Part shown: positions 1 through 25,929 of the stretch, piece by piece | How positions within the stretch are numbered: the first letter of the stretch is position 1 | How the letters are laid out: every line of letters begins with the position of its first letter | Origin: a virus | Taxonomy: Duplodnaviria; Heunggongvirae; Uroviricota; Caudoviricetes | Strand: one strand, 5' to 3' | IMG/VR virus record: IMGVR_UViG_2562617113_000015 | Coordinates: 1-30,093 of that record | DNA: 30,093 nt | Position numbers and translations under genes: made by a program | The notes under the pieces: generated by a model | What the model was told of the DNA's origin: nothing | The model's database searches: none | The model's input: the letters and a program-made list of their open reading frames with translations, nothing else

Positions 1-1314
1 CTAACTTACTGATTTTAATAGACCTCTTGTGTCACTTTGGTGACTATGGGACATCATTGGGACATAATCTGCCAGCTTCTGATTCAGCATGGCGATCTGT
101 TCTGCATTGCTGTCAGTCATCCATGCTCCGTATACATTGAACACCATCTGGGCACTTGCATGGCCCATCTGGCTGGCAATGAAGCTTGGATTTGCTCCGG
201 CAGATAATGACCAGCACGCATAAGTGTGTCGTGACTGGTATGCCTTTCGATACCTGATGCCAGCACGCTTAATGGCTGTTTCCCATGAGTCGCCAATGGA
301 ATCTACCTTGTAGATAAAACCTACCTGTTTGCTTTTTCTAACCACCTGGGGGTTAAATACGAAAGTACATTCATGATTCACTGAACGTCCATATTCACGT
401 AGTTGCACCTTGATGTGGTGCTGCTTACCCAGTCTTGTCATTTCAGCCTGATTTTTCAGGACACTGATAGCGGGCTGGATAAGATGCACAACCCTGTTTG
501 TACTTGCTTCAGTTTTAGGTAGAGTGAACTCACCGAGTTTCGTATAATTGCGCCTGATAGTAATTGTTCCTGCTTTCAGATCGATATCTTCCCAGGCCAG
601 GGAGACCAGTTCACCATGACGCATTCCTGTGTACACAGCCAATGACCACAGGTTTTTTGTCTGCTGATGCCGGCAAGCATCTATCAGGCGAATAAATTCG
701 TCACGAGTTAGCGGATCTGGCTCTGCCCTGGCTTTTTTAAGAGGCTTAATTCTCTCGAAGGGATTTGCTTCTAAGTAACCGTGATCTGCAGCAAACTGGA
801 ACATTCCAGCGATTGTCGTCATGTAATAATTTACTGTGACAACGCTTCGTCCTTTTACTCGAGCTTTACCTTTTGTTGGATTTTGGTATCCGGTCAGCAA
901 ATCTTTCCTGATATACAGCAATTCCTCTTTGGTCACCGTTGACACCAGTCTGCTACCTCCAATTTTCGGAACCATCGTTCTTGCAACGGATTTATAGCGA
1001 TTGAATGCATTTGCAGAGATTTCCATGCGTTTCAGATCCAGCCACTTTTCTTCAAGTTCTTTCACCGTAATTTCTTTTTTATTTACCCCAAAAGCCTTGA
1101 GGTTAGGAGAGTCAGGGAACTGCGCAGCATAATCAAAGTTTCCTGTACGAATGGCAAAACATACAGATGTCCGCAGCTCTCCGGCGATCTTCCTGTTCTT
1201 GACAGTGTCAGGGACACCAAGATTTTCCCTGACACGTTTACCTTTAAAATTAAACCAGATGCGTAATGTGCCGCCGTGGTTTTCGACGCCTGTTGGATAT
1301 TTGACTTTATCCAT
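1..1314 (-). CDS. int: Tyrosine-type site-specific integrase (437 aa)
   Basis: Long minus-strand ORF at the prophage edge; GGAGG RBS upstream of the ATG at 1314; C-terminal region has the R/H/R/Y-type layout expected of tyrosine recombinases; stop codon is at 1-3, so attL/attR is not in the window. Confidence 0.85.
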   Translation of the reverse strand: MDKVKYPTGVENHGGTLRIWFNFKGKRVRENLGVPDTVKNRKIAGELRTSVCFAIRTGNFDYAAQFPDSPNLKAFGVNKKEITVKELEEKWLDLKRMEISANAFNRYKSVARTMVPKIGGSRLVSTVTKEELLYIRKDLLTGYQNPTKGKARVKGRSVVTVNYYMTTIAGMFQFAADHGYLEANPFERIKPLKKARAEPDPLTRDEFIRLIDACRHQQTKNLWSLAVYTGMRHGELVSLAWEDIDLKAGTITIRRNYTKLGEFTLPKTEASTNRVVHLIQPAISVLKNQAEMTRLGKQHHIKVQLREYGRSVNHECTFVFNPQVVRKSKQVGFIYKVDSIGDSWETAIKRAGIRYRKAYQSRHTYACWSLSAGANPSFIASQMGHASAQMVFNVYGAWMTDSNAEQIAMLNQKLADYVPMMSHSHQSDTRGLLKSVS

Positions 1315-1369
1315 TGATACCTCCAGACGCCCAAGAGCGATACGAGCTTACATATTTCATGGTATTAAA

Positions 1370-1606
1370 TCACCCAGGTTGTTTGTTTTTCATTGAAGAG
1401 ACCCAGGCATCTATTGCTTTTCTGTTATACATACATTCACTGGAAGGTTTTGGATTACCGTCTGGCGATACGTGAATATACTCTCTTCCTACCATCCAGC
1501 ATTCTTTCCGGGCTCGGAGAATTGTGCCAGGTTTGAGCCCGGTAATTGCGATAAGAACGCTTTCACAAACCCATTCATTGGGAGCCAGTTGAATCACATT
1601 GCCCAT
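1370..1606 (-). CDS. xis: Excisionase-like small DNA-binding protein (78 aa)
   Basis: Small ORF immediately upstream of int on the same strand with a GAGG RBS; size and position fit an excisionase; sequence family not verified. Confidence 0.5.
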   Translation of the reverse strand: MGNVIQLAPNEWVCESVLIAITGLKPGTILRARKECWMVGREYIHVSPDGNPKPSSECMYNRKAIDAWVSSMKNKQPG

Positions 1607-1614
1607 GTATTACC

Positions 1615-1761
1615 TCACACAACACTCAGCCCACGGCAGTGGCACCACACTTCAAACATTCGTTTCACAACTTCACGGCAGTAGAAACCGTCAACATCTC
1701 GCGTCAGGTCATAACGATTGCCGTAACGCTGGCGTACCCATAGCTCAAACGCTTTATTCAT
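1615..1761 (-). CDS. Hypothetical small protein (48 aa), not in the ORF track
   Basis: ATG at 1761 (minus) and stop at 1615-1617 read by eye; packed between the flanking genes; below the ORF-track size cutoff. Confidence 0.25.
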   Translation of the reverse strand: MNKAFELWVRQRYGNRYDLTRDVDGFYCREVVKRMFEVWCHCRGLSVV

Positions 1762-1764
1762 TCG

Positions 1765-2007
1765 CTACTTCCTTTTCATGGCTCGTAATTTTTTCAGATG
1801 AGCTTCCTGCTCTGTTTCTGCCAGAATTTGTCGGTATTCCTGGTGATCGATCCGTTCAAACGATTCATTAAAATCGTTCATTTTTACCGATTGTGTTCGC
1901 CCATCCATTCTTCTGTACAACACGGTGTTATTTATGCAGCGAATAATTTTTACCGGGTAACCGGCACTGTCGGTATACAGTTGTCCCTGATTAATCAAAG
2001 CAAACAT
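1765..2007 (-). CDS. Hypothetical protein (80 aa)
   Basis: Internal ATG (MFALINQ...) preceded by GGAG; the track ORF 1765..2130 is probably over-extended at its 5' end. Confidence 0.45.
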   Translation of the reverse strand: MFALINQGQLYTDSAGYPVKIIRCINNTVLYRRMDGRTQSVKMNDFNESFERIDHQEYRQILAETEQEAHLKKLRAMKRK

Positions 2008-2038
2008 TTTTTCTCCTGCTCTCTGAATAGTGAGAACT

Positions 2039-2416
2039 TCAGAGCCGTATGTTTGTAGCGGGTTCAATACTGATAATTTCTGCTGAGATAAGCATCCCGG
2101 CAAGCCAGAGTTCTCCGGACAGGTCTTCATCCTGACATATCAGTTCGCCAATATTAATGGTGGCCATGATATCTGTTTCCCCTGTGCGCTCATCCTTGAC
2201 TTCTTCATAAGGCAGCGTTGCGTACAGGCTTTCAATAGCGCAACTGATAACATCCAGTCCGGTCAGATTGCCGCCGACAGTAACTTCGAATGTTTCGCGG
2301 TATTCCCATAGTCCGAAAGTTAATCGAACGGTTTGGTTTGCCATGCGTCCGCATGACGTCAGATTCGGGTCATAGTTCATTATTTGCGGTTGAGTATTCT
2401 GGGTGTTCATCTGCAT
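2039..2416 (-). CDS. Hypothetical protein (125 aa)
   Basis: ORF with an AAGGGA RBS upstream of the ATG at 2416; no recognisable family. Confidence 0.5.
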   Translation of the reverse strand: MQMNTQNTQPQIMNYDPNLTSCGRMANQTVRLTFGLWEYRETFEVTVGGNLTGLDVISCAIESLYATLPYEEVKDERTGETDIMATINIGELICQDEDLSGELWLAGMLISAEIISIEPATNIRL

Positions 2417-2449
2417 TTCCCTTAGCCCGGCGCCTGCCGGGCATATAAG

Positions 2450-3277
2450 TTATTTAATCTGGATAAATGGTGTATTGGCACCACTGGTCATGTATTGCGG
2501 CAGTGTACCGTTCCACTTGTTGATGGCTTCCAGCTCCATGACGCCTGGGTTCTGGCGTAGAGCTTCGCCGCGTAAACGAATGGCATCGGCTTCTGCCTGG
2601 GCTTTTGTTCGAATGGCATCAGCCTGTCCGGCAGCTTCCGCACGTAGCATGTTGGCCTCCGCTTCACGTTGCTTGACTTCCTGCTCGCGCTGCAGGGTTT
2701 TCTGGTTTGCCGTGACTTTGGCATTAATGCTGTCGATAACGGTTGGCGGGTACTCCGGCTTACCCACATATGAGAGGCTCATTACCTGAATACCGATAGG
2801 TGTCATCTCTGCCTGAATGTCTTTAAGAGCTTCATCCAGCAGCTCAGACTTGCCGCCGTCGATAAATTTGTCAGTGGTCATTTTGCTGGCCAGTCGGTTG
2901 AGTGCGTCGGCGATCTTCTGGCGCAGGTCAGTGTCGGTAATGTCATCCACGCCTTTGCGGTAGGTCTGAAACACCGTGGTAACTTTGGATGGATCAACTT
3001 TGTAGGCCACGCCAATGTGATAGCCGATGGTTGTACCGTCACTCATCTGGAAACTGAACGGTTCATCGTAGGTCTTCATTTGTTTGAAGGTGGGGAAGAT
3101 ATAAACTTCAGTATTCCAGCCAGTCCAGTAGCGACCAACACCGACCACCTCACCGACGCCTTTGTCGTCGCCCAGTTTATTTACCTTGATGCCAACATTA
3201 CCTGGTTCAACGCGATCGCAACCGACAAGGCCAATAGTCGGCAGAACAATGGCTAAAGCAAAAATAATTTTTTTCAT
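2450..3277 (-). CDS. SPFH/band-7 (prohibitin-like) lipoprotein (275 aa)
   Basis: N-terminal signal peptide ending in lipobox L-V-G-C; central SPFH-like region; C-terminal Ala/Glu/Arg/Gln-rich coiled coil; AAGGA RBS; start overlaps the upstream gene's stop (ATGA). Confidence 0.8.
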   Translation of the reverse strand: MKKIIFALAIVLPTIGLVGCDRVEPGNVGIKVNKLGDDKGVGEVVGVGRYWTGWNTEVYIFPTFKQMKTYDEPFSFQMSDGTTIGYHIGVAYKVDPSKVTTVFQTYRKGVDDITDTDLRQKIADALNRLASKMTTDKFIDGGKSELLDEALKDIQAEMTPIGIQVMSLSYVGKPEYPPTVIDSINAKVTANQKTLQREQEVKQREAEANMLRAEAAGQADAIRTKAQAEADAIRLRGEALRQNPGVMELEAINKWNGTLPQYMTSGANTPFIQIK

Positions 3278-3462
3278 CTTTTATCCTTAGTGAAAGAAAG
3301 ACCCTTGTAAATGGCATAAATGCAGGGCGGGGTCAGAAACGCCAGTGCAAAGCCAGAAATAACTGCTATCGTATCCTTCATGGATATAAGGAACGGAACG
3401 AGTAATCCGTAAATGCATGCGATAATTGCCAGTAAAATTACTATTGTGAAATACAGTCTCAT
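3274..3462 (-). CDS. Small two-helix membrane protein (62 aa), translationally coupled to the SPFH gene
   Basis: Two hydrophobic segments; stop overlaps the SPFH start codon (ATGA at 3274-3277). Confidence 0.6.
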   Translation of the reverse strand: MRLYFTIVILLAIIACIYGLLVPFLISMKDTIAVISGFALAFLTPPCIYAIYKGLSFTKDKR

Positions 3463-3485
3463 TGGTCTGTGGTATCCCGATATTT

Positions 3486-3593
3486 TTAACCGACTGACAG
3501 CGCAATAAAGAGAATAATGATTTCAGTTAGTGTCAGTACTGTGGCAAGGATTAAAATCAGTTTTACTCTGTTTAATTCACGGTTGCTTTTCAT
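3486..3593 (-). CDS. Possible small hydrophobic peptide (35 aa: MKSNRELNRVKLILILATVLTLTEIIILFIALSVG)
   Basis: Read by eye on the minus strand; charged N-terminus followed by a single predicted transmembrane helix; no clear Shine-Dalgarno. Confidence 0.25.
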   Translation of the reverse strand: MKSNRELNRVKLILILATVLTLTEIIILFIALSVG

Positions 3594-3638
3594 ATAAACG
3601 GTTGGTAAAAGATGGAAGAATTATATTCTTCTTAATAT

Positions 3639-4220
3639 TTAATGTGTCACTGGCGCTTCTGGCATACCATGAGTATTCAGGTCGTTCATCATTTCATCCA
3701 GAAGGAGTTCAAGCCCTTCGCGCCCCATAGCAGAAATAATGAAACCATTATCAGGATCTGCGATGAGCATTTTTTGATAGAGAAACAGAACTCGCCCCAT
3801 GCCTTCAGCTTCGCCATATTTTTCAATAAATCCCCATTCGACGTGGTTTTGCAGGGCAATACGAAGTGGTCCGGGGTAGATACTCAGGCAACCATGTTTA
3901 CCCTTGTAAATAACCGCGTGATCTGTAGTTCCGTTATCGTTAGGGATATCAACGGTACCGTTCTTGTCTTTCTCTTCATTTATAAACGTAGTCACATACA
4001 GCCATCGCCACTGAGCAACCTTCATATCGACTGAAAATCGTCCCAGCAACCCTGCATCATCGGCTTCAGCAATACATTGCATGATTCTTAAGCCGTGCCA
4101 GTATGGATTGTCGTATTCACCATCATTAAGTCGCTGTACGGCATCAACAAAATTAATGGTTGTATTGCCAATTTTTATGCCATGTGGCGTAACTTCTGGT
4201 CGGAAATCTGAATGATTCAT
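3639..4220 (-). CDS. Hypothetical protein (193 aa), last gene of a coupled three-gene unit
   Basis: Internal ATG at 4220 preceded by AAGGAG; start overlaps the stop of the upstream 62-aa gene (ATGA at 4217-4220); AT-rich; no recognisable family. Confidence 0.6.
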   Translation of the reverse strand: MNHSDFRPEVTPHGIKIGNTTINFVDAVQRLNDGEYDNPYWHGLRIMQCIAEADDAGLLGRFSVDMKVAQWRWLYVTTFINEEKDKNGTVDIPNDNGTTDHAVIYKGKHGCLSIYPGPLRIALQNHVEWGFIEKYGEAEGMGRVLFLYQKMLIADPDNGFIISAMGREGLELLLDEMMNDLNTHGMPEAPVTH

Positions 4221-4405
4221 AATGTTTGCTCCTTTGCTGGTGGAATAATCGTGTAGCCAGCTCTTTTTGCCATCCACAGAAATGTATCCATGCAGCCAAC
4301 GAATTCATTATCCAACAGATGTTTTGAGTAAATTACTTCACCATTTTCAATGGTTAGCAACACTCTTACTTTTTTATGTGTTATGTTTTGTTGTTTTTCT
4401 TTCAT
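4217..4405 (-). CDS. Hypothetical protein (62 aa)
   Basis: GGGAGA RBS; translationally coupled to the downstream 193-aa gene. Confidence 0.5.
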   Translation of the reverse strand: MKEKQQNITHKKVRVLLTIENGEVIYSKHLLDNEFVGCMDTFLWMAKRAGYTIIPPAKEQTL

Positions 4406-4409
4406 TTAT

Positions 4410-4523
4410 TTATCTCCCATATGCTTTGCGCAAATACAGGTTGGCTATATGAAGATAAGAATCTCCATGTTGTGCAATGAGGCAGGCAGTTTTATACGAT
4501 GCCTTATGTTTCAGGAAAGTCAT
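4410..4523 (-). CDS. Possible small basic protein (37 aa: MTFLKHKASYKTACLIAQHGDSYLHIANLYLRKAYGR)
   Basis: Read by eye; AGGAG RBS 8 nt upstream of the ATG at 4523; stop lies 4 nt before the start of the next gene. Confidence 0.25.
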   Translation of the reverse strand: MTFLKHKASYKTACLIAQHGDSYLHIANLYLRKAYGR

Positions 4524-4601
4524 AACATAATCTCCTGCGAATAAAGGTTGCAACAATCCCCGGCGATAAAACCGTAATAAACATTCAGTGAATATTTATT
4601 G

Positions 4602-4802
4602 TTATTGCGCTAATTCTTTTTTGACTGCAGCTTTCGAATATTCACATGCAAAAGACAGGATTTCATCACCTAATGTTTTTGCATTCTGATTATTTGACAT
4701 CTGTAAAACTTGCGCAGCGCACAACAGACTATGAATGTTTATTGCAAATGAATCCGATGCCAGACAAATACCTTCGAAATTGTCATGGATATTACTATTC
4801 AC
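4602..4802 (-). CDS. Small protein (66 aa) paralogous to the N-terminal domain of the adjacent HTH protein
   Basis: GTG start with AAGGAG RBS; segment DSFAINIHSLLCAAQVL...ILSFACEY aligns with DSFALNIANLLSAVRTF...VMEFIHEY of the upstream gene. Confidence 0.55.
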   Translation of the reverse strand: MNSNIHDNFEGICLASDSFAINIHSLLCAAQVLQMSNNQNAKTLGDEILSFACEYSKAAVKKELAQ

Positions 4803-4807
4803 TGCTG

Positions 4808-5260
4808 TTACTCCTTTGCAGCATTGCTACCAGTCAATAACCACATCGGATCGCAGCCAAGAATATTTGCCAGTGGGATAAGCATACTGATGGTTGGTTC
4901 ATACTCTCCGCTCTCCCACTGGATGATGATTTCTTCATCAAGAGCGAGCAGCCTGGCGAGTTCGGCTGTTGTTAAGCCGCAGGCTTCGCGTTGGGTGCGA
5001 AGGTTAACCAGCCAGCTTTCAGGGAAGGATTGTTTTTGTTGTGCAGGAGAAGCAGCAGATAGAGCATATTCATGGATAAATTCCATTACCTCAATGCCCA
5101 GTTCCTTTGAGCGAGCACAATCCAGAAGATGGAATGTGCGTACAGCACTTAGCAAATTTGCAATATTTAATGCAAAGGAATCAAGTTCTAAGCCCTTAAG
5201 CGTAACACAGCCGCAGTTGATAAAATTAGTTGTTTCTGGAGTTGCTTTTAGTGTCTTCAT
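4808..5260 (-). CDS. Two-domain protein (150 aa): unknown N-terminal domain plus C-terminal Cro/C1-type (XRE) HTH
   Basis: C-terminal GLTTAELARLLALDEEIIIQWESGEYEPTISMLIPLANILGCDPMWLL is a typical XRE HTH; first gene downstream of the PL-like promoter. Confidence 0.75.
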   Translation of the reverse strand: MKTLKATPETTNFINCGCVTLKGLELDSFALNIANLLSAVRTFHLLDCARSKELGIEVMEFIHEYALSAASPAQQKQSFPESWLVNLRTQREACGLTTAELARLLALDEEIIIQWESGEYEPTISMLIPLANILGCDPMWLLTGSNAAKE

Positions 5261-5290
5261 ATACCCACCAACAATTTTAAATTGAATTAA

Positions 5291-5342
5291 ATCAAGTTAT
5301 AATTGATGGTGCGATATTATGCTTTGGGAAATAGGCTGTCAA
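5291..5342 (-). promoter_or_regulatory. PL-like leftward promoter with OL operator
   Basis: Minus strand reads TTGACA-N17-TAATAT (-35 at 5337-5342, -10 at 5314-5319); perfect 17-bp palindrome ATCAAGTTATAATTGAT at 5291-5307 at the predicted start site; the ATCAAG half-site recurs in OR. Confidence 0.5.
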
Positions 5343-5370
5343 GAAAAAATTGATATCGTATATTTCAGGC

Positions 5371-5397
5371 AGAAAAAAAACGGGCAAAGCCCGTTAA
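5371..5397 (-). terminator. Rho-independent terminator downstream of the cI-like gene
   Basis: 7-bp stem (AACGGGC / GCCCGTT) with a 3-nt loop, followed on the minus strand by a U8 run; sits 10-30 nt after the cI stop. Confidence 0.65.
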
Positions 5398-5406
5398 AAT
5401 CAAAGA

Positions 5407-6096
5407 CTAACCAAATCTGTTTATGTTGAATGGTACTGATGAGATCACTTTAGACTGGATATAAAGCAGAGCTAACCCCTCTTTTTCGATGCTCCATGGT
5501 TGATAATTGGGGTTATCAGATAACACCATGATTTTGCTTCCAATTTTTTGAAGCCTTTTCACGTAGCATTCTCCATCAAAACAAAATGCATAAATACCAT
5601 CGCCATCAAAATAAGTTACTGTCTTATCAAGAAAAAGAAGGTCGCCAGGTGAGATTGTGGGAGCCATACTGTCTCCTCTGGCGTTACCTATTTCTATATT
5701 TTTGAATGCCCGATTTCCAACAAGACGTCGGGCATATTCAGGATCAAGTTCTATTGAGCGCACTACATCTATCAAGTCACCACGGACATGAGTTCCATCA
5801 CCGCAACTAAACTCAACATCAAGGACATTAAACACGACGCTATCTGTTCTTGTCTGGTGTTTCTCTTGCGAGGAAAAGGTTGGTGAGGAGTCTTCACCTA
5901 AGAACCAGGATTGTGGATAACCGCTAATCTCTGATAAATGCGCGAGCTTATCACTCCGTGGAAATGTTTTTCCTGTTGTCCAGTACTGCACTGATTGCGC
6001 ACTCACACCTAACTTGCGGGCCAGTTGAGCCTGAGTCCATCCTTTTGCTTTCAGCATCGCGGCTATTCGATTTTCCGTGTTTTTGACGTTCTTCAT
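5407..6096 (-). CDS. cI: CI-like prophage repressor (229 aa): N-terminal HTH plus C-terminal S24 (LexA-like) autopeptidase domain
   Basis: N-terminal HTH (GWTQAQLARKLGVSAQSVQYW); C-terminal G-D-S-M serine motif and a downstream lysine, as in LexA/CI; divergent from the cro-like gene. Confidence 0.9.
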   Translation of the reverse strand: MKNVKNTENRIAAMLKAKGWTQAQLARKLGVSAQSVQYWTTGKTFPRSDKLAHLSEISGYPQSWFLGEDSSPTFSSQEKHQTRTDSVVFNVLDVEFSCGDGTHVRGDLIDVVRSIELDPEYARRLVGNRAFKNIEIGNARGDSMAPTISPGDLLFLDKTVTYFDGDGIYAFCFDGECYVKRLQKIGSKIMVLSDNPNYQPWSIEKEGLALLYIQSKVISSVPFNINRFG

Positions 6097-6229
6097 GACC
6101 AGGTCCTGTGGGTTTCTTTACAAGGATAAATCTTTACTTGATTTTAGTGTATTCGATCCTTTTGCAACTTGCATGTTAATTTAATCTTGATGTATTCTTG
6201 TGTTATCAAGTTAATATTGGTGTTTTGCT
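6097..6229. promoter_or_regulatory. OR-like immunity region with divergent PRM/PR promoters and operator half-sites
   Basis: Intergenic region between divergent cI and cro; ATCAAG/CTTGAT half-sites at 6138-6143, 6186-6191 and 6205-6210; candidate PR is TTGATG-N18-TTAATA (6187-6216); exact -35/-10 assignments are uncertain. Confidence 0.55.
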
Positions 6230-6530
6230 ATGAAAGGAAATGATTACGACGTACTTCGCGCATTAATTGCGCAAAATGCCATTGCACGAAACCTTGGTGT
6301 AACTCCGCAAGCGGTGAATCAGTGGTTTTCCAAAAAACACAATTCCTGCTCGTTTTGTTTTACGCGTATGTGAAGTAGTTGCATGGAAGGTCACGCCACA
6401 TGGCTTAAGGCCAGATCTTTATCCTCACCCTGAAGATGGAATTCCTGATTCGTTACGCAAAATTTCAAATCCAAGCCTAGCGCGCACGGAAGATGGGCAG
6501 AGTGATTCATCAGAAATGTCCACGCGATGA
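6230..6530 (+). pseudogene. cro: Cro/YdaS-like regulator, frame-disrupted at an A6 run (6332-6337)
   Basis: The ATG frame gives an HTH (LGVTPQAVNQWFSK) and stops at 6371-6373 after ...HNSCSFCFTRM; the +1 frame continues TIPARFVLRVCEVVAWKVTPHGLRPDLYPHPEDG... to a stop at 6528-6530, matching the C-terminal pattern of YdaS-type Cro proteins. Confidence 0.55.
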
Positions 6531-6606
6531 ACGGTTACTGAACGAAAAAAGAAAAGCCGGGCCGCACTCCGTCAGCCCGACTTATTCTGATTAGTAAGGG
6601 GATTTC

Positions 6607-7374
6607 ATGATGATCAATAAACAAAAAATAGTCAACCCTGAAAACTTGCCAGTTATTGAGTGGCAGGGAGTACGTGTAGTTACCACCGAAACGTTGGCGG
6701 CGGGATATGGAACAACGCCAATCCGTATACAACAGAACTACATTCGAAACGAAGATCGTTTCGTTGAGGGTAAACACTTTTTCAAAATCAGCGGTGATGA
6801 GCTGAAATCTTTCCGACTATCTTTTAGCGAGTCGGTTAATAAACATACAACATCACTTGTCCTCTGGACAGAACGCGGCGCTGCCCGCATGTCAAAAATC
6901 GTCGATACAGACGAGGCCTGGTCGTTCTTCGAAAAAATGGAGCAGGCGTATTTTCGTAAAGCAACGCCTTCTTCAAACACTATTCCAGACTTTGACGATC
7001 CGATCGCTGCTGCTGAAGCGTGGATTGAAGCCAAAAAATCCGAACGCCTTGCTCTCGGGTATGCAGAGCGTCAGGCTCGCTACATCAGCAAACTCGAAAG
7101 CCATCTCGCCGATGGCATCACTCCTGTGCAGTTCTGCAAACAACTCAACGGTGTAAACACTCGTCAGATTAATGCGTTCCTTGAAGAGCGTAACTGGCTG
7201 TATGACGACCGTCCGGAGGCTATGTATCCGCGCTGGCGTGTAAAAGCGTATGCACGTGACCAATACCTGACTGAGCGTTCTGGGCAGGTTGAGCAGGAAA
7301 ACGGGGAAATGCGCGAGATTTTCAAACCACTCCTGAAGAAAAAAGGTGCCCCTGGTTATATCGCCATTATCTGA
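6607..7374 (+). CDS. Antirepressor-family protein (255 aa), ORF6N-like N-terminal domain plus Ant-like C-terminal domain
   Basis: AAGGGG RBS; motif LWTERGAARM shared with the 13225..13713 gene (ILWTERGAARHAKM); C-terminal region resembles phage antirepressor C-terminal domains. Confidence 0.8.
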   Translation: MMINKQKIVNPENLPVIEWQGVRVVTTETLAAGYGTTPIRIQQNYIRNEDRFVEGKHFFKISGDELKSFRLSFSESVNKHTTSLVLWTERGAARMSKIVDTDEAWSFFEKMEQAYFRKATPSSNTIPDFDDPIAAAEAWIEAKKSERLALGYAERQARYISKLESHLADGITPVQFCKQLNGVNTRQINAFLEERNWLYDDRPEAMYPRWRVKAYARDQYLTERSGQVEQENGEMREIFKPLLKKKGAPGYIAII

Positions 7375-7459
7375 ACGGTGAACTACCGATGAAGAAAACA
7401 TGGGATGGGCTGTTTACCCATAACACTGAGCTCGCGAATCTTTTACAGGAGAACAAATA

Positions 7460-7669
7460 ATGCAAACCAAGACGTGTGTAACTGGTGATGTCGATCTGAA
7501 ACCTTGCCCGTTCTGCGGAAATCCGGAAGTACAACTCATTGAGGTGAAATATTTTCTGGATGGCGATGATGGTTATTACGTCGCATGTACTTGCTGTAAC
7601 GCAAACCAGATCCCTGATTCGAAAGAACGTGCTGTTCATGACTGGAATCAGCGCGAAAACGCGGATTGA
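7460..7669 (+). CDS. lar: Lar-family restriction-alleviation-like zinc-ribbon protein (69 aa)
   Basis: CPFCG ... CTCC cysteine pairs and size fit the Lar family as remembered; AGGAG RBS. Confidence 0.6.
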   Translation: MQTKTCVTGDVDLKPCPFCGNPEVQLIEVKYFLDGDDGYYVACTCCNANQIPDSKERAVHDWNQRENAD

Positions 7670-7705
7670 TGGCGAGTAGGTACAAAATGATCCGCAACCA
7701 ACATA

Positions 7706-16266: not shown

Positions 16267-16449
16267 ATGACGCGAAAACACTGGACACACAGAATGCCGC
16301 GAACGGCGGTGAAATGGGCACTGGTAGCGATACTGGTGCCTTTTTTCCTGGTGGGCTGCGTCAGCCTGGATAAGGCGCGCCAGCTTTTCGATACAGCTTC
16401 TCAGGTCTGTGAAATTGTTGATAGTGTCCGGCAGTGTATGCAGAACTGA
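16267..16449 (+). CDS. Small lipoprotein (60 aa), possible outer-membrane spanin-like component
   Basis: Signal peptide with lipobox L-V-G-C; lies after the lysis genes; not proline-rich, so the spanin assignment is tentative. Confidence 0.45.
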   Translation: MTRKHWTHRMPRTAVKWALVAILVPFFLVGCVSLDKARQLFDTASQVCEIVDSVRQCMQN

Positions 16450-16491
16450 CCGACGGTGAGAGCAGAATATTTTTTAGAGGAGCGAAATTCT

Positions 16492-16842
16492 ATGCCATCA
16501 CAAATCCCTCGTGCATGCCGTAAGCGAGGCTGCGCAGGCACAACGACGGACAGTTCTGGCTACTGCGATAAGCATCGCGGCGAAGGTTGGACACAACATC
16601 AACGCGGACTGAGCCGCCACCAGCGTGGCTATGGCTCGAAATGGGATGCCATACGTGCGCGCATACTGAAGCGTGATAATCATTTGTGTCAGAACTGCCT
16701 GCGCAATGGGAGAGCCGTTGAAGCCAGAACTGTGGACCACATCATTCCGAAAGCGCATGGCGGTACGGATGCAGACGGTAATCTGCAGAGCCTGTGCTGG
16801 CCATGCCACAAGGCGAAAACAGCGCGTGAACGCATCAACTGA
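16492..16842 (+). CDS. HNH endonuclease (about 116 aa)
   Basis: GAGGAG RBS; Cys-rich HNH region (CQNC ... DHIIPKAHGG ... CWPCH); HNH-before-terminase arrangement. Confidence 0.8.
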   Translation: MPSQIPRACRKRGCAGTTTDSSGYCDKHRGEGWTQHQRGLSRHQRGYGSKWDAIRARILKRDNHLCQNCLRNGRAVEARTVDHIIPKAHGGTDADGNLQSLCWPCHKAKTARERIN

Positions 16843-16990
16843 TAATCGTTCTCATCTGTAAGGGAGGGGCGGGTCAAATCTCTGCAACCCTGGCTGCTCA
16901 GTACCGCCGCCTGACCCTTCCTCACATCGCCGCAGGTTCGAAAACTTTTTTTTGGAAATGTGAACAAACGATTGATAGGTAAGACCGATT

Positions 16991-24087: not shown

Positions 24088-24792
24088 ATGTCCTCTAATT
24101 TTGAGCGTTCGCAACTGACGAAAATTATGATTTCGTCTGCACCGGTAACAGCAGAAACCCTGGATTCTGCCAGCTATCTTGGCCTGAGCTGTACAATCAA
24201 AGAGGTGCAGTTTACCGCAGGACAAAAGCAGGATATTGATGTCACCACGCTGTGTTCTGTTGAGCAGGAAAATATTAACGGTCTTGGTGCCGCGTCAGAG
24301 ATTTCCATGTCAGGCAACTTTTACCTCAATGCTGCCCAGAACGCGTTGCGCAGTGCCTATGACAATGACACCACGTATGGCTTTAAAGTTATTTTTCCGT
24401 CAGGAAACGGATTTACCTTTATGGCAGAGGTGCGTCAGCATACCTGGTCTGCAGGAACCAATGGTGTTGTGGCTGCAACGTTTTCCCTGCGCCTGAAAGG
24501 TAAACCTGTGCTGGCGACAGAGCCGCTGAAAGTGAAGGTCGATTTAAACAGCACGCTGCAGGTTTCTGCCGGAGCGAAACTCGAAATGGTGGTTGAGGCT
24601 GCCGGTGGTGTGCCGCCTTATTCTTATGTCTGGAAGAAAGGTAGTTCTCCTGTTTCCGGACAGACGGCGGCAACGTTCAGTAAGGCATTTGCAGTATCCG
24701 GTGATGCGGGCGCATATACCTGCGAGATTTCTGATTCAGCAAGCCCGGTTAACAAAGTGACCTCCACTTCCTGCACTGTAACCGTCAGTTAA
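24088..24792 (+). CDS. Major tail protein with C-terminal Ig-like domain
   Basis: RBS; the C-terminal 90 aa resemble an Ig-like domain as in lambda gpV. Confidence 0.8.
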   Translation: MSSNFERSQLTKIMISSAPVTAETLDSASYLGLSCTIKEVQFTAGQKQDIDVTTLCSVEQENINGLGAASEISMSGNFYLNAAQNALRSAYDNDTTYGFKVIFPSGNGFTFMAEVRQHTWSAGTNGVVAATFSLRLKGKPVLATEPLKVKVDLNSTLQVSAGAKLEMVVEAAGGVPPYSYVWKKGSSPVSGQTAATFSKAFAVSGDAGAYTCEISDSASPVNKVTSTSCTVTVS

Positions 24793-25178
24793 TGAGGATG
24801 GGTGTGATGACTAAAAATATCCGTAATCTGGCTCTGGCAACGATGTCGGGGTTTCGCCATAAAACTGTTGATGTGCCTGAATGGGAAGGGGCAACGGTTG
24901 TATTACGGGAACCTTCTGCAGAAGCCTGGTTGCGCTGGCAGGAGATCGTTAAAGCAAAAGATGATGAGACACCGTTATCCGTTGCGGAGCGCGCCCGCCG
25001 AAATCTGGAGGCAGATGTTGAACTGTTCATTGATGTTCTGTGTGATACCGGACTGCAACCTGTATTTTCAGAGGATGATCGTGAACAGGTGATTGCCGTG
25101 TATGGCCCGGTGCATGCGCGGCTTCTTCGGCAGTCTCTGGAACTGATCAGTGATGCCGGCGAGGTTAAAAAAAAGTAG
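24792..25178 (+). CDS. Tail assembly chaperone (gpG-like); start may be at 24807
   Basis: Ends ...GEVKKK-stop with slippery heptamer A-AAA-AAG at 25169-25175. Confidence 0.75.
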   Translation: MRMGVMTKNIRNLALATMSGFRHKTVDVPEWEGATVVLREPSAEAWLRWQEIVKAKDDETPLSVAERARRNLEADVELFIDVLCDTGLQPVFSEDDREQVIAVYGPVHARLLRQSLELISDAGEVKKK

Positions 25179-25480
25179 CGCTTCCGGGGATGCGTTTTCT
25201 GATGATGCTGGCACTCAGGATGGGGCGCACATTGTCAGAGTTACGCCGGGAAATGTCCGCATCAGAAATCATGATGTGGGCAGAATTTGACAGGTTCAGC
25301 CCGCTGGGGGACGAACGGGCTGATATCCGGGCTGCCCAGATTGTTTCAGCTGTTTACGGTGCGCAGGGTGTCAAAGTACCACTGAATGATGCGCTTCTTC
25401 AGTGGGAGCATGATTCAGAAGAAAATAAATGCGATGATCCATTTATTGGATTAGAGGTTGCTCTAATGTCTTCACTATAA
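25169..25480 (+). CDS. gpT-like extension of the tail assembly chaperone, reached by a programmed -1 ribosomal frameshift
   Basis: The -1 frame is open from the slippery site through 25480; ORF 25190..25480 has no independent RBS. Confidence 0.7.
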   Translation, partial: KKVALPGMRFLMMLALRMGRTLSELRREMSASEIMMWAEFDRFSPLGDERADIRAAQIVSAVYGAQGVKVPLNDALLQWEHDSEENKCDDPFIGLEVALMSSL

Positions 25481-25538
25481 GATAATTTTTTAATCGTTTT
25501 GAAATTGAATGCTTTACTCAAAGTCAGGAGGATTAATC

Positions 25539-25880
25539 ATGAGAAAATCAGTGGTGACATTAGCTTGTTTGTTTTTTATTAGTGCATGTAAGCCATCAGA
25601 TAATTATGTTATTTCTTTAGGGGAAAACTTAGTTAAAGATAAGCTTATTGATCCTGATAGTGCAAAATTTAATTCTTTTTTTCATAAGTCAGGTGATTTA
25701 TATGGTTATGTTTGTGGTGATGTTAATTCAAAAAACACGTTTGGTGGATATACAGGGAAAAAGCCATATTTTGTTTATTTGGAAGTTGTGGATGGAAAAG
25801 TTAAGAGTCATGGGACTGTAACAATTGTTAATGATCATGATCCAAGCAGTATGGAAAAATATAAGTTGTTTTGCCAATAA
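25539..25880 (+). CDS. Lipoprotein moron (about 113 aa)
   Basis: AGGAGG RBS; signal peptide with lipobox F-I-S-A-C; AT-rich relative to the flanking tail genes; followed by its own terminator. Confidence 0.65.
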   Translation: MRKSVVTLACLFFISACKPSDNYVISLGENLVKDKLIDPDSAKFNSFFHKSGDLYGYVCGDVNSKNTFGGYTGKKPYFVYLEVVDGKVKSHGTVTIVNDHDPSSMEKYKLFCQ

Positions 25881-25890
25881 TTATCATCTT

Positions 25891-25916
25891 AAAAAACCGC
25901 AGAAGCGGTTTTTTTA
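25891..25916 (+). terminator. Rho-independent terminator after the lipoprotein moron
   Basis: Stem ACCGC / GCGGT with loop AGAA, followed by T7. Confidence 0.65.
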
Positions 25917-25929
25917 TGGGGTAAAGTAA

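What the first reader, a model, noticed from the sequence alone, without database searches (positions are those of the whole stretch)
25490..25916. Self-contained lipoprotein moron inserted between the tail chaperone and the tape measure gene
An AT-rich gene with its own AGGAGG RBS and a strong terminator encodes a lipoprotein of about 113 aa in a position normally free of cargo. Tail-module morons of this kind are often lysogenic-conversion or superinfection-exclusion factors expressed from the prophage.
Basis: partly seen in the sequence, partly recalled or inferred. Interest (0 to 1): 0.5.

Follow-up and report, generated by a model that had tools for sequence, protein, structure and literature searches.

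The report
Lipoprotein moron before tape measure gene
A small AT-rich gene for an exported, membrane-anchored lipoprotein sits between the tail chaperone and tape measure genes of an HK97-like E. coli prophage, in the slot where phage "morons" were first described; it belongs to a large, uncharacterised family of phage cargo proteins, and its most likely role, still untested, is to block entry of other phages.

Summary
Window 25539-25880 (+) encodes a 113-aa lipoprotein precursor with lipobox ISA-C17 and Lys at +2. AGGAGG lies 7 nt upstream, and a 10-bp hairpin with a T-run follows. GC is 0.30 against about 0.52 in the flanks, the lowest in the window.

The slot is not "normally free of cargo". 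It is the type locality of the word moron (HK97 gene 15). ES18 gp20, a homologue annotated "possible moron", also sits just upstream of its tape measure gene.

The gene is accessory: 18 of 5,426 complete E. coli genomes carry it, while 902 have the same T/tape-measure junction. It is not a recent insert. In Citrobacter and other prophages, homologues of 45-86% identity occupy the same slot, diverge in step with T (r = 0.97), stay AT-rich and show dN/dS of about 0.1.

The protein belongs to phrog_2320, part of a large exported-domain family (8,325 cluster representatives) with no Pfam, NCBIfam or PADLOC match. The predicted fold is cystatin/NTF2-like. Relatives lie mostly next to tape measure genes or at other prophage cargo sites.

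No member has a known function, and this copy has no convincing promoter of its own. Best guess: an envelope entry-exclusion factor (about 0.4).

The parts
24792..25178 (+). Tail assembly chaperone (G-like), upstream flank
   Evidence: PF06222 Phage_TAC_1 at E 2.8e-58 and phrog_344.
25190..25480 (+). Tail assembly protein T, upstream flank. It lies in the -1 frame relative to the chaperone, so it is probably made as a G-T frameshift fusion as annotated in HK97 and HK544.
   Evidence: PF06223 Phage_tail_T at E 4e-18. HK97 and HK544 annotate a joined CDS with a -1 frameshift. The frame relation is read from the coordinates.
25408..25480 (+). Left mosaic joint: the divergent, AT-rich last ~24 codons of T, which travel with the cassette
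   Evidence: Identity to the empty-site relatives ends at about 25407. GC of 25408-25480 is 0.33 against 0.54 for the rest of T.
25458..25486 (+). Best candidate sigma-70 promoter, TTGCTC-N17-GATAAT. It is weak and unproven.
   Evidence: It scores 8 of 12 and is also present in L013. It falls below the threshold of the consensus scan, which found no + strand site upstream.
25526..25531 (+). Shine-Dalgarno sequence AGGAGG, 7 nt before the ATG
   Evidence: Read directly from the sequence.
25539..25880 (+). Lipoprotein gene, 113 aa. Signal peptide and lipobox occupy 25539-25589 (Cys17 codon 25587-25589). The mature protein is 96 aa.
   Evidence: Translation; phrog_2320 at E 2e-33; conserved lipobox and two further conserved Cys; dN/dS 0.08-0.12; AlphaFold2 model with pLDDT 86.
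25891..25914 (+). Terminator-like hairpin (10-bp stem, AGAA loop) running into a T-run that ends at 25915
   Evidence: Perfect inverted repeat I4. Free energy -13 kcal/mol, z -4.25. Equivalent hairpins occur in HK97, HK544, the empty site and other family loci.
25930..29130 (+). Tape measure protein, downstream flank. Its start codon is the right mosaic joint.
   Evidence: 1066-aa ORF. RefSeq annotates it as a tape measure protein. Identity to the empty-site relatives resumes at the start codon.

Best explanation
**What it is (shown).** This is a moron-type accessory cassette in the T/tape-measure junction of an HK97-like lambdoid prophage of E. coli. It is an alternative occupant of the slot that holds gene 15 in HK97.

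It encodes a secreted lipoprotein precursor. By the standard E. coli sorting rule, Lys rather than Asp at +2 sends the mature protein to the outer membrane. The mature protein would be a 96-aa cystatin/NTF2-like domain held within about 4 residues of the lipid anchor, so it should sit at the periplasmic face of the outer membrane. It probably contains a C59-C112 disulfide.

The gene is under purifying selection and is an old, patchily retained resident of this slot. It belongs to a very large exported-domain family (core motif LKDPxSAxF...VCGxVNAKNSFGGYxG). Temperate phages carry this family at cargo positions, most often next to the tape measure gene.

**How it most likely works (inferred, not shown).** The protein is made in the lysogen and/or late in infection. 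It acts in the periplasm as an entry-exclusion factor, stopping superinfecting phages after adsorption or at the receptor. It could do this by interfering with the tail-tip or tape measure proteins as they cross the envelope, or by acting on the periplasmic side of an outer-membrane receptor.

The analogies are HK97 gp15 (same slot, exclusion dependent on the tail region), TP-J34 Ltp (a lipoprotein that targets the tape measure protein), and T5 Llp and Cor (proteins that inactivate FhuA; Llp is a lipoprotein).

**Confidence.** The anatomy and family assignment are about 0.9. The exclusion mechanism is about 0.4.
For: **Cassette and gene**
- Gene, ribosome-binding site, hairpin and GC trough are all present.
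- The gene is accessory: 18 of 902 junction-bearing E. coli genomes, and 18 of 5,426 overall. Empty junctions occur in close relatives.
- The slot is the same as that of the HK97 and HK544 gp15 moron. HK97 gp15 is expressed from the prophage and blocks genome injection (PMC3594210).
- The gene is functional: dN/dS is 0.08-0.12.

**Long residence in the slot**
- Homologues of 45-86% identity always lie between T and the tape measure gene.
- Their identity correlates with that of T (r 0.97) and of the tape measure protein (r 0.87).
- GC stays at 0.32-0.42 against 0.49-0.57 in the flanks.

**Family**
- phrog_2320 at 2e-33; 8,325 representatives at E <= 1e-3; at least 468 IMG/VR contigs.
- The domain is exported. 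Of 149 relatives, 85 have a lipobox and nearly all the rest that were inspected have signal peptides or membrane anchors; a few are N-terminally truncated fragments.

**Cargo contexts of relatives**
- In 44 of 77 downstream neighbours the next gene is a tape measure protein.
- 10 of 25 clusters lie directly upstream of a tape measure gene and 3 directly downstream.
- Other sites: between K and I; between ogr and the prophage end in P2-like phages; directly after, and overlapping, a cI-like HTH gene in Mu-like prophages; beside a polymorphic-toxin cassette in M. abscessus prophages.

**Precedents**
- Ltp targets the tape measure protein (title cited in PMC3952083).
- T5 Llp blocks FhuA (title cited in PMC12952977).
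- Another tail-cluster cargo gene, P-FimU, gives anti-phage defence.
Against: - No member of the family has a tested function. All source names are "hypothetical" or "lipoprotein". There is no PADLOC, Pfam or NCBIfam hit.
- No convincing promoter lies upstream in this window, so expression from the repressed prophage is unproven. The gene is co-oriented with the late operon and may be mainly a late gene.
- The core motif is nearly invariant from Enterobacterales to Pseudomonas and is recognisable in Mycobacterium and Gordonia phages. That fits a conserved envelope target better than a phage-specific or receptor-specific one.
- There is no sequence similarity to gp15. No Llp or Ltp structure appears among the best fold matches.
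Confidence: 0.42

Rival explanations
1. It is a peptidoglycan-directed or enzyme-inhibitor protein. The cystatin/NTF2-like domain would bind a conserved cell-wall component or inhibit a periplasmic hydrolase, such as a lytic transglycosylase, an endopeptidase or a tail-associated lysin. This would protect the wall of the lysogen or modulate lysis. It could itself be the mechanism of exclusion.
For: - The fold class includes protein inhibitors (cystatins, latexin, the PepSY-like YpmB) and the membrane-anchored colicin M immunity protein.
- The motif is nearly invariant from Enterobacterales to Pseudomonas and recognisable in actinobacterial phages, which argues for a conserved target.
- Pseudomonas phage and prophage members carry a C-terminal SPOR peptidoglycan-binding domain.
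- Neighbours are often tape measure proteins or the gpK NlpC/P60 peptidase.
Against: - There is no sequence match to Ivy, MliC, PliG or other known inhibitor families in Pfam.
- SPOR fusions are a minority of members (2 of 41).
Confidence: 0.18
2. It is a host-fitness lysogenic-conversion factor unrelated to phages. On this view it is an outer-membrane lipoprotein that changes serum resistance, adhesion, envelope-stress tolerance or colonisation, as lambda Bor does.
For: - It is predicted to be an outer-membrane lipoprotein.
- It has moron-type composition and distribution.
- Relatives sit at lysogeny-expressed cargo sites.
- Bor is the precedent for a prophage outer-membrane lipoprotein with a host phenotype (PMC3594210).
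Against: - There is no similarity to Bor (no Pfam hit).
- The family occurs in phages of soil, insect-associated and plant-associated bacteria and of actinobacteria, so no niche-specific virulence role is apparent.
- The strong bias towards slots next to the tape measure gene is not explained.
Confidence: 0.17
3. It is a late-expressed phage function rather than a prophage-expressed one. It would be made with the tail genes from the Q-antiterminated late transcript. It could prevent progeny virions from ejecting into debris or already infected cells (the second role proposed for T5 Llp; this comparison rests on my own recollection, not on a paper read here). Alternatively it could assist lysis or tail maturation in some hosts.
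For: - The gene is co-oriented with, and embedded in, the late operon, has a strong ribosome-binding site and has no clear promoter of its own.
- It has co-diverged tightly with T and the tape measure protein.
- The hairpin is also present at empty junctions, so it is read through in any case.
Against: - The gene is dispensable. Phages 96-97% identical in the flanks lack it, and these records are deposited under phage names.
- An exported lipoprotein is an unlikely virion or assembly component.
- Distant members sit outside late operons, next to repressor-like genes or at prophage ends.
- Several relatives have reasonable promoter matches (GTGACA-N17/18-TAGGAT and TGgTAGGAT).
Confidence: 0.15
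4. It is a decaying or non-functional passenger ORF.
For: It is rare in E. coli (18 of 5,426 genomes) and has no annotated function.
Against: - dN/dS is 0.08-0.12 across four comparisons.
- Lipobox, Cys pair and motif are conserved.
- The ORF is intact in all 18 genomes.
- The structure prediction is confident.
Confidence: 0.02

Closest known systems
HK97 gene 15 moron (gp15, YebO-like inner-membrane superinfection-exclusion protein)
   Same: - It occupies the same slot, between the tail assembly chaperone (G/GT) and the tape measure gene of an HK97-like tail module.
- It is a short single-gene cassette with its own ribosome-binding site, followed by a hairpin and T-run immediately before the tape measure start codon.
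- It is absent from close relatives.
- gp15 is prophage-expressed and blocks genome injection in a manner that depends on the tail region (PMC3594210).
   Different: - There is no sequence similarity.
- gp15 is a 62-aa inner-membrane protein, whereas this is a 113-aa lipoprotein predicted to go to the outer membrane, with a folded periplasmic domain.
- No function has been shown for this protein.
Salmonella phage ES18 gp20 (annotated "possible moron; function unknown") and Klebsiella phage vB_VIPKPNMC05 CDS0013
   Same: - They are true homologues (BLASTP 5e-15 and 2e-12, with the same core motif).
- They sit immediately upstream of the tape measure gene and are followed by a hairpin terminator.
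   Different: - They are longer (151 and 173 aa), with different N-terminal regions.
- In ES18 the upstream chaperone belongs to an unrelated family (DUF6246), so the phage backbone differs. The Klebsiella phage chaperones are annotated only as tail proteins.
- They are equally uncharacterised.
T5 Llp and the Cor proteins of phi80, N15 and HK022
   Same: - They are small phage-encoded envelope proteins.
- Llp is a lipoprotein that blocks the FhuA receptor (Decker 1994, title cited).
- Cor proteins inactivate FhuA functions (Uc-Mass 2004, cited).
   Different: - No homology was detected. phrog_1119 (Cor) is not among the hits for this protein, and no Llp entry appears among the best PDB fold matches.
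- Those proteins are receptor-specific and taxonomically narrow, whereas this family reaches phages of several bacterial phyla.
Ltp of Streptococcus thermophilus phage TP-J34
   Same: It is a prophage-encoded, surface-anchored lipoprotein that gives superinfection exclusion, and its identified target is the tape measure protein (PMC3952083).
   Different: - It comes from a Gram-positive host.
- No Ltp entry appears among the best fold matches, so there is no sign of a shared fold.
- No homology was detected.
Lambda Bor
   Same: It is a prophage-encoded outer-membrane lipoprotein and a classic lysogenic-conversion moron.
   Different: - No similarity was found (no Pfam hit).
- Bor lies outside the tail module.
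- The Bor phenotype is serum resistance.

Membership tests
Phage moron (sensu Juhala/Hendrix; as summarised in PMC3594210) | Present in one phage but absent between the same two genes in close relatives | tested here: met
   Of 902 E. coli genomes with the junction, 18 carry the gene. Phage vB_EcoS-689R5 and strain AF20 have the empty junction.
Phage moron (sensu Juhala/Hendrix; as summarised in PMC3594210) | Base composition different from the surrounding genes | tested here: met
   GC is 0.304 (GC3 0.19) against 0.49-0.52 in the flanks. It is the lowest-GC stretch of the window.
Phage moron (sensu Juhala/Hendrix; as summarised in PMC3594210) | Own transcription terminator | tested here: met
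   A 10-bp hairpin with a T-run, -13 kcal/mol, z -4.25. Caveat: a similar hairpin also exists at the empty junction and after HK97 gp15.
Phage moron (sensu Juhala/Hendrix; as summarised in PMC3594210) | Own promoter | tested here: inconclusive
   The scan finds no + strand promoter upstream. The best candidate, TTGCTC-N17-GATAAT, scores 8 of 12. Relatives have better matches of 9 of 12, or an extended -10.
Phage moron (sensu Juhala/Hendrix; as summarised in PMC3594210) | Expressed from the repressed prophage | not testable with these tools
   This needs RNA or protein data from a lysogen.
Bacterial lipoprotein (signal peptidase II substrate), outer-membrane sorted | N-terminal signal peptide ending in a lipobox [LVI][ASTVI][GAS]C, with no Asp at +2 | tested here: met
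   MRK, then a hydrophobic core, then I-S-A-C17, with K18 at +2. A16 to S20 are invariant in close homologues. Lipidation and localisation themselves are not testable here.
phrog_2320 and the related exported LKDPxSAxF / VNAKNxxGGYxG domain family | Full-length profile match and conserved core motif | tested here: met
   phrog_2320 at E 2e-33 over residues 1-113. All 41 sampled relatives match it. Nearly invariant residues are L36, D38, P39, F44, C59, G60, N63, K65, N66, G69, Y71, G73 and C112.
HK97 gp15 / YebO family | Sequence similarity to gp15 | tested here: not met
   BLASTP gives no alignment at E <= 100. There is no Pfam hit.
Lambda Bor family | Match to the Pfam Bor model | tested here: not met
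   The protein has no Pfam family at E <= 0.1.
Cor superinfection-exclusion family (phrog_1119) | Profile match | tested here: not met
   It is not among the 7 PHROG hits for this protein. One of 41 relatives hits it at 9.5e-4, which I attribute to the lipoprotein signal peptide, although the matched region was not shown.
Known anti-phage defence systems (PADLOC-DB) | Match to any PADLOC model | tested here: not met
   Zero families at E <= 1.
T5 Llp / TP-J34 Ltp exclusion lipoproteins | Shared fold or sequence with the solved structures | tested here: not met

The most novel reading that the evidence does not exclude
The exported cystatin/NTF2-like LKDPxSAxF / VNAKNxxGGYxG domain (phrog_2320 and relatives) may be a widespread, so far unrecognised class of phage-encoded envelope immunity proteins. 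Temperate phages of Proteobacteria and Actinobacteria carry it, preferentially next to their tape measure genes. On this reading it blocks a conserved periplasmic step of genome delivery, such as passage of the tape measure or tail-tip proteins through peptidoglycan. This cassette would then be a functional alternative to HK97 gp15 in the same slot.
Probability: 0.3. Interest if true: 0.65.

Novelty: new member of a known kind. Interest (0 to 1): 0.4.

Why it matters
As a genome feature it is ordinary: a moron in the best-known moron slot.

What is worth knowing is the family behind it. The domain is exported and has no Pfam, NCBIfam or PADLOC model and no characterised member. It has thousands of sequence clusters. 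It turns up again and again in temperate phages immediately beside the tape measure gene, or at lysogeny-expressed cargo sites.

If it is an entry-exclusion protein, it would add a common and easily testable mechanism to prophage-mediated phage resistance. That matters for phage therapy host range in E. coli, Klebsiella, Salmonella, Pseudomonas and Mycobacterium abscessus.

The locus also shows that a "moron" can be an ancient resident that co-diverges with its neighbours while staying AT-rich, rather than a recent insertion.

Tried and rejected
- **Family libraries.** Pfam, NCBIfam and PADLOC scans of the protein and of 41 relatives gave only SPOR hits in fused members and signal-peptide-level noise.
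- **PDB sequence searches.** Nothing was significant. The best hit, the ejection protein gp49 of 8vb2 (E 0.41, aligned over the core motif), is not supported by either fold search and is treated as chance.
- **Literature.** Searches for the family, ES18 gp20, phrog_2320, SPOR morons and exclusion lipoproteins found no characterisation. The Tai (tail assembly inhibition) defence paper is unrelated. The primary papers by Cumby et al. (2012) and on ES18 are not held.
- **Rfam.** Only sub-threshold hits were found (isrK 17.6 bits against a gathering score of 50, over the hairpin).
- **Insertion signatures.** I looked for flanking direct repeats. Only short imperfect matches were found, for example a 19-mer at 25544-25562 and 25923-25941 with 79% identity. 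These were judged to be chance. The boundaries look like homologous-recombination joints inside T and at the tape measure start codon.
- **Rejected readings.** A recent insertion from an AT-rich donor is rejected because relatives in the same slot co-diverge with T and all stay AT-rich. A tail-assembly gene is rejected because close relatives lack the gene.
Full report

Yes. Window 25539-25880 (+) is a 342-nt gene for a 113-aa protein, MRKSVVTLACLFFISAC|KPSDNYV.... RefSeq annotates the identical gene in E. coli MEI7BO1-21 as hypothetical protein WP_071605788.1.

- AGGAGG lies at 25526-25531, 7 nt before the ATG.
- The mechanical ORF starting at 25509 contains that ribosome-binding site, and homologues start at the MRK/MKK position. 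The start is therefore 25539.
- Residues 14-17 (I-S-A-C) form a canonical lipobox. A16, C17, K18, P19 and S20 are invariant in nine homologues.
- Downstream, AAAAAACCGC-AGAA-GCGGTTTTTT (25891-25914) is a perfect 10-bp inverted repeat that runs into a T-run. Its free energy is -13 kcal/mol, z = -4.25 against shuffles. Only four pairs are G-C, and the consensus terminator scan did not list it. "Strong" is generous, but it is a good terminator-like hairpin.
- Gene GC is 0.304 and GC3 is 0.19. The lowest-GC 342-nt stretch of the whole 30-kb window starts at 25410. The neighbouring genes are 0.49-0.52.
- The flanks are the tail assembly chaperone (24792-25178, PF06222), protein T (25190-25480, PF06223) and a 1066-aa tape measure protein (25930-29130).
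- No ORF of 50 aa or more lies on the opposite strand. No Rfam family reaches its threshold.

**2. Cassette boundaries**

I aligned the window with two close relatives that lack the gene: E. coli AF20 and phage vB_EcoS-689R5, which is 96-97% identical in the flanks.

- Identity stops at about 25407, inside T. It resumes exactly at the tape measure start codon.
- The last ~24 codons of T are a diverged, AT-rich version (GC 0.33) of the same C-terminus (...DPFxGLExAL...).
- The exchanged block is therefore about 25408-25929. The joints look like homologous-recombination joints, not an insertion with target duplications. Only chance-level short repeats were found.
- The empty junction is not bare. 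It keeps a hairpin, CCGC-TTCG-GCGG plus a T-run, between T and the tape measure gene.

**3. The slot is the classic moron site**

The opposite is true.

- HK97 and HK544 show gp15 (62 aa), followed by a hairpin terminator, at exactly this junction. HK544 shares an 87% identical tape measure gene with the window.
- The junction therefore exists in at least three states: empty with hairpin, gp15 with hairpin, and lipoprotein with hairpin.
- gp15 and the lipoprotein are unrelated in sequence.
- Salmonella phage ES18 carries three annotated "possible morons" between its chaperone and tape measure gene. The last one, gp20, is a homologue of this protein (41% identity, E 5e-15) and has its own annotated terminator.
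- Klebsiella phage vB_VIPKPNMC05 has another homologue in the same place.

**4. Accessory, but old**

- The T/tape-measure junction is found in 902 of 5,426 complete E. coli genomes. Only 18 carry the gene.
- A direct search with the gene finds the same 18 genomes, always single-copy and chromosomal. There are two alleles: >= 99% identity in 11 genomes and 93.3% in 7. The gene is therefore dispensable and rare.
- All closer protein homologues that could be placed on contigs lie in the same slot, between Phage_tail_T and the tape measure gene of HK97-like prophages. They are 86%, 58% and 48% identical and come from a metagenomic contig and from Citrobacter and other enterobacterial genomes.
- Further IMG/VR loci of 45-62% identity do the same.
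- Over ten such loci, the identity of the lipoprotein tracks that of T (r = 0.97; 0.87 without the closest locus). It tracks the tape measure protein less tightly (r = 0.87; 0.56 and not significant without the closest locus).
- In all of them the gene stays at GC 0.32-0.42 while the tape measure gene is at 0.49-0.57.
- dN/dS against four homologues is 0.08-0.12.

The gene is thus a functional, long-resident, co-diverging occupant of this junction. It has either been lost from most E. coli relatives or is swapped in and out by recombination in the conserved flanks. Its AT-richness is a maintained property, not a sign of recent import.

**5. The protein and its family**

- There is no Pfam, NCBIfam or PADLOC hit.
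- It matches phrog_2320 (unknown function) at 2e-33 over its full length, and several related PHROGs of unknown function.
- An exhaustive profile search finds 8,325 cluster representatives at E <= 1e-3.
- The nearly invariant core is L36, D38, P39, F44, C59, G60, N63, K65, N66, G69, Y71, G73 and C112. Written as a motif this is LKDPxSAxF...VCGxVNAKNSFGGYxG...C, with two conserved cysteines that probably form a disulfide (inference).
- Of 149 relatives, 85 have a lipobox. Nearly all the rest that were inspected have ordinary signal peptides or N-terminal membrane anchors, and a few are N-terminally truncated fragments. The domain is always extracytoplasmic.
- Some Pseudomonas phage and prophage members add a C-terminal SPOR peptidoglycan-binding domain.
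- Every source name is "hypothetical protein" or "lipoprotein".
- AlphaFold2 (pLDDT 86, pTM 0.74) gives a helix at 21-33, a four-stranded antiparallel sheet and a C-terminal helix.
- BFVD returns uncharacterised lipoproteins of Gordonia and Rhodobacter phages.
- With Lys at +2 (established Lol sorting rule) and only about four residues between the lipidated Cys and the first helix, the domain should sit at the periplasmic face of the outer membrane (inference).

**6. Where the family lives**

At least 468 IMG/VR viral contigs encode a relative. Among the best 80 loci:

- The downstream neighbour is a tape measure protein in 44 of 77 cases.
- The commonest upstream neighbours, of 80 scanned, are two unrelated chaperone families (DUF6246 in 24 cases, Phage_tail_T in 14), gpK (6), Ogr (6) and a tape measure protein itself (4).
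- After clustering at 70% identity there are 25 clusters. Ten lie directly upstream of a tape measure gene and three directly downstream.

Other sites:

- Between K and I in Escherichia phages Fraca and LMessi and in Pseudomonas phage AUS531phi.
- Between ogr and the integrase or prophage end in P2-like phages.
- In SSU5-like phage-plasmids.
- Beside a polymorphic-toxin cassette near the end of M. abscessus prophage records.
- In Mu-like prophages, directly after a cI-like HTH gene and overlapping it by 4 nt. This position suggests co-expression with that regulator.

All four distant members sampled were in prophage contexts or beside prophage remnants. One caveat applies: the 80 loci are the relatives closest to the query, so the bias towards tape measure genes may be overstated.

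**7. Is it self-contained?**

The ribosome-binding site and the hairpin say yes. The promoter is not established.

- The scan finds no + strand promoter upstream.
- The best candidate, TTGCTC-N17-GATAAT (25458-25486), overlaps the T stop codon and scores only 8 of 12.
- Relatives do better. Four loci have GTGACA-N17/18-TAGGAT (or TAGCAT in L014), scoring 9 of 12. ES18 and the Klebsiella phage have TGgTAGGAT, an extended -10 element.
- The family may therefore often carry a promoter, but for this copy expression in the lysogen is an open question.
- Because the gene is co-oriented with the late operon, it will in any case be transcribed late.

**8. Mechanism**

*Shown:* the anatomy, the accessory distribution, purifying selection, export signals, family membership and the cargo-site contexts.

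*Inferred:* outer-membrane localisation, the disulfide and action in the periplasm.

*Proposed (about 0.4):* an entry-exclusion factor that stops superinfecting phages at the envelope. The proposal rests on four precedents.

- gp15 in the same slot is prophage-expressed and blocks genome injection in a way that depends on the tail region.
- Ltp is a lipoprotein whose target is the tape measure protein.
- T5 Llp and Cor inactivate the FhuA receptor; Llp is a lipoprotein.
- P-FimU is a tail-cluster cargo gene that gives anti-phage defence.

The main difficulty is that the motif is nearly invariant from Enterobacterales to Pseudomonas and recognisable in actinobacterial phages. That points to a conserved envelope target, such as peptidoglycan or a wall enzyme, which the SPOR fusions and the inhibitor-type fold also fit. 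It does not point to a specific receptor or phage protein. That is the first rival, and it could equally be the mechanism of exclusion.

The other rivals are a Bor-like host-fitness factor, a late-expressed function (protecting progeny from debris, or a role in lysis), and a non-functional passenger ORF. The last is contradicted by dN/dS.

**9. Novelty and verdict**

The feature is a new, unannotated instance of a known kind: a moron in the archetypal slot, whose ES18 homologue was already flagged as a possible moron. It is not a new type of element.

The interest lies in the family, which is very large, phage-borne, exported, frequently next to tape measure genes and wholly uncharacterised. 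Interest is 0.4.

The most novel reading not excluded is a widespread new class of envelope immunity proteins. I give it a probability of about 0.3 and an interest of about 0.65 if true.

Noticed in passing
window 25408-25480: The low-GC block begins inside the T gene. The last ~24 codons of T are a diverged, AT-rich allele (GC 0.33) that travels with the lipoprotein cassette. Locus L013 shares this T allele (98% identity) although its chaperone is only 78% identical and its tail tube only 65%. The recombination joint is therefore inside T.
   Followed up: partly
L001 1895-1913 (empty junction, E. coli AF20); L014 about 6350-6385; window 25891-25914: The empty T/tape-measure junction keeps a hairpin, CCGC-TTCG-GCGG plus a T-run. 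Its stem and loop are identical to the hairpin that follows the lipoprotein gene in a Citrobacter prophage (L014). Hairpins of the form AAAACCGC-loop-GCGGTTTTTT follow family genes in several unrelated phages. The empty junction could be a deletion derivative, or the hairpin could be a recombination landmark.
   Followed up: partly
window 24792-25480: T (25190-25480) lies in the -1 frame relative to the chaperone (24792-25178), as in the HK97 and HK544 G/GT programmed frameshift. RefSeq annotates the two as separate genes. The slippery site was not searched for.
   Followed up: no
L108 4546-5624; L109 4546-5624; L110 4494-5621: In Mu-like prophages a 206-207-aa family member starts 4 nt before the stop of the upstream gene. 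In L108 and L109 that gene is a cI-like HTH gene transcribed divergently from the transposase operon, an arrangement that suggests lysogeny-phase co-expression. In L110 the overlapping upstream gene has no Pfam hit.
   Followed up: no
window 3355-3698, 4121-4724, 5059-5643, 13877-14883: Other AT-rich islands (342-nt GC below 0.36) lie in the early-left and immunity region and just upstream of the putative holin ORFs that start near 14861. They contain small ORFs of unknown function and may be further cargo.
   Followed up: no
window 1-16900 versus NZ_CM149560.1 (L022): The best E. coli match is 100% identical over 25100-26300, and its gene coordinates coincide with the window from about 16991 onward. 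Its early region is offset by about 1.2 kb: the integrase ends at 122 in the locus but at 1314 in the window. The window therefore comes from a mosaic relative, not necessarily from that strain.
   Followed up: no
window 25846-25915 (+): There is a weak sub-threshold Rfam match to isrK, a prophage Hfq-binding sRNA (17.6 bits against a gathering score of 50; E 0.41). It spans the 3' end of the gene and the hairpin and is probably driven by the terminator.
   Followed up: no
window 25544-25562 and 25923-25941: An imperfect 19-nt direct repeat (79% identity) joins the 5' end of the lipoprotein gene (AAAATCAGTGGTGACATTA) and the tape measure start (AAAGTAAATGGCGACATTA). It is probably chance, but it could be microhomology left by an old recombination event.
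   Followed up: no
protein residues 22-110 versus PDB 8vb2 chain I residues 712-803: The best, but non-significant (E 0.41), PDB sequence match of the family profile is an "octameric ejection protein (gp49)". It aligns over the VxGxVN...GYT core. Neither fold search supports it.
   Followed up: partly
L019 about 5950-6000; L038 and L042 about 4950-5000 (upstream of the family gene): In one subgroup of T/tape-measure-slot loci a 9-bp inverted repeat (CCCTATGAG...CTCATAGGG) overlaps the presumed ribosome-binding site of the lipoprotein gene. This suggests possible translational control.
   Followed up: no
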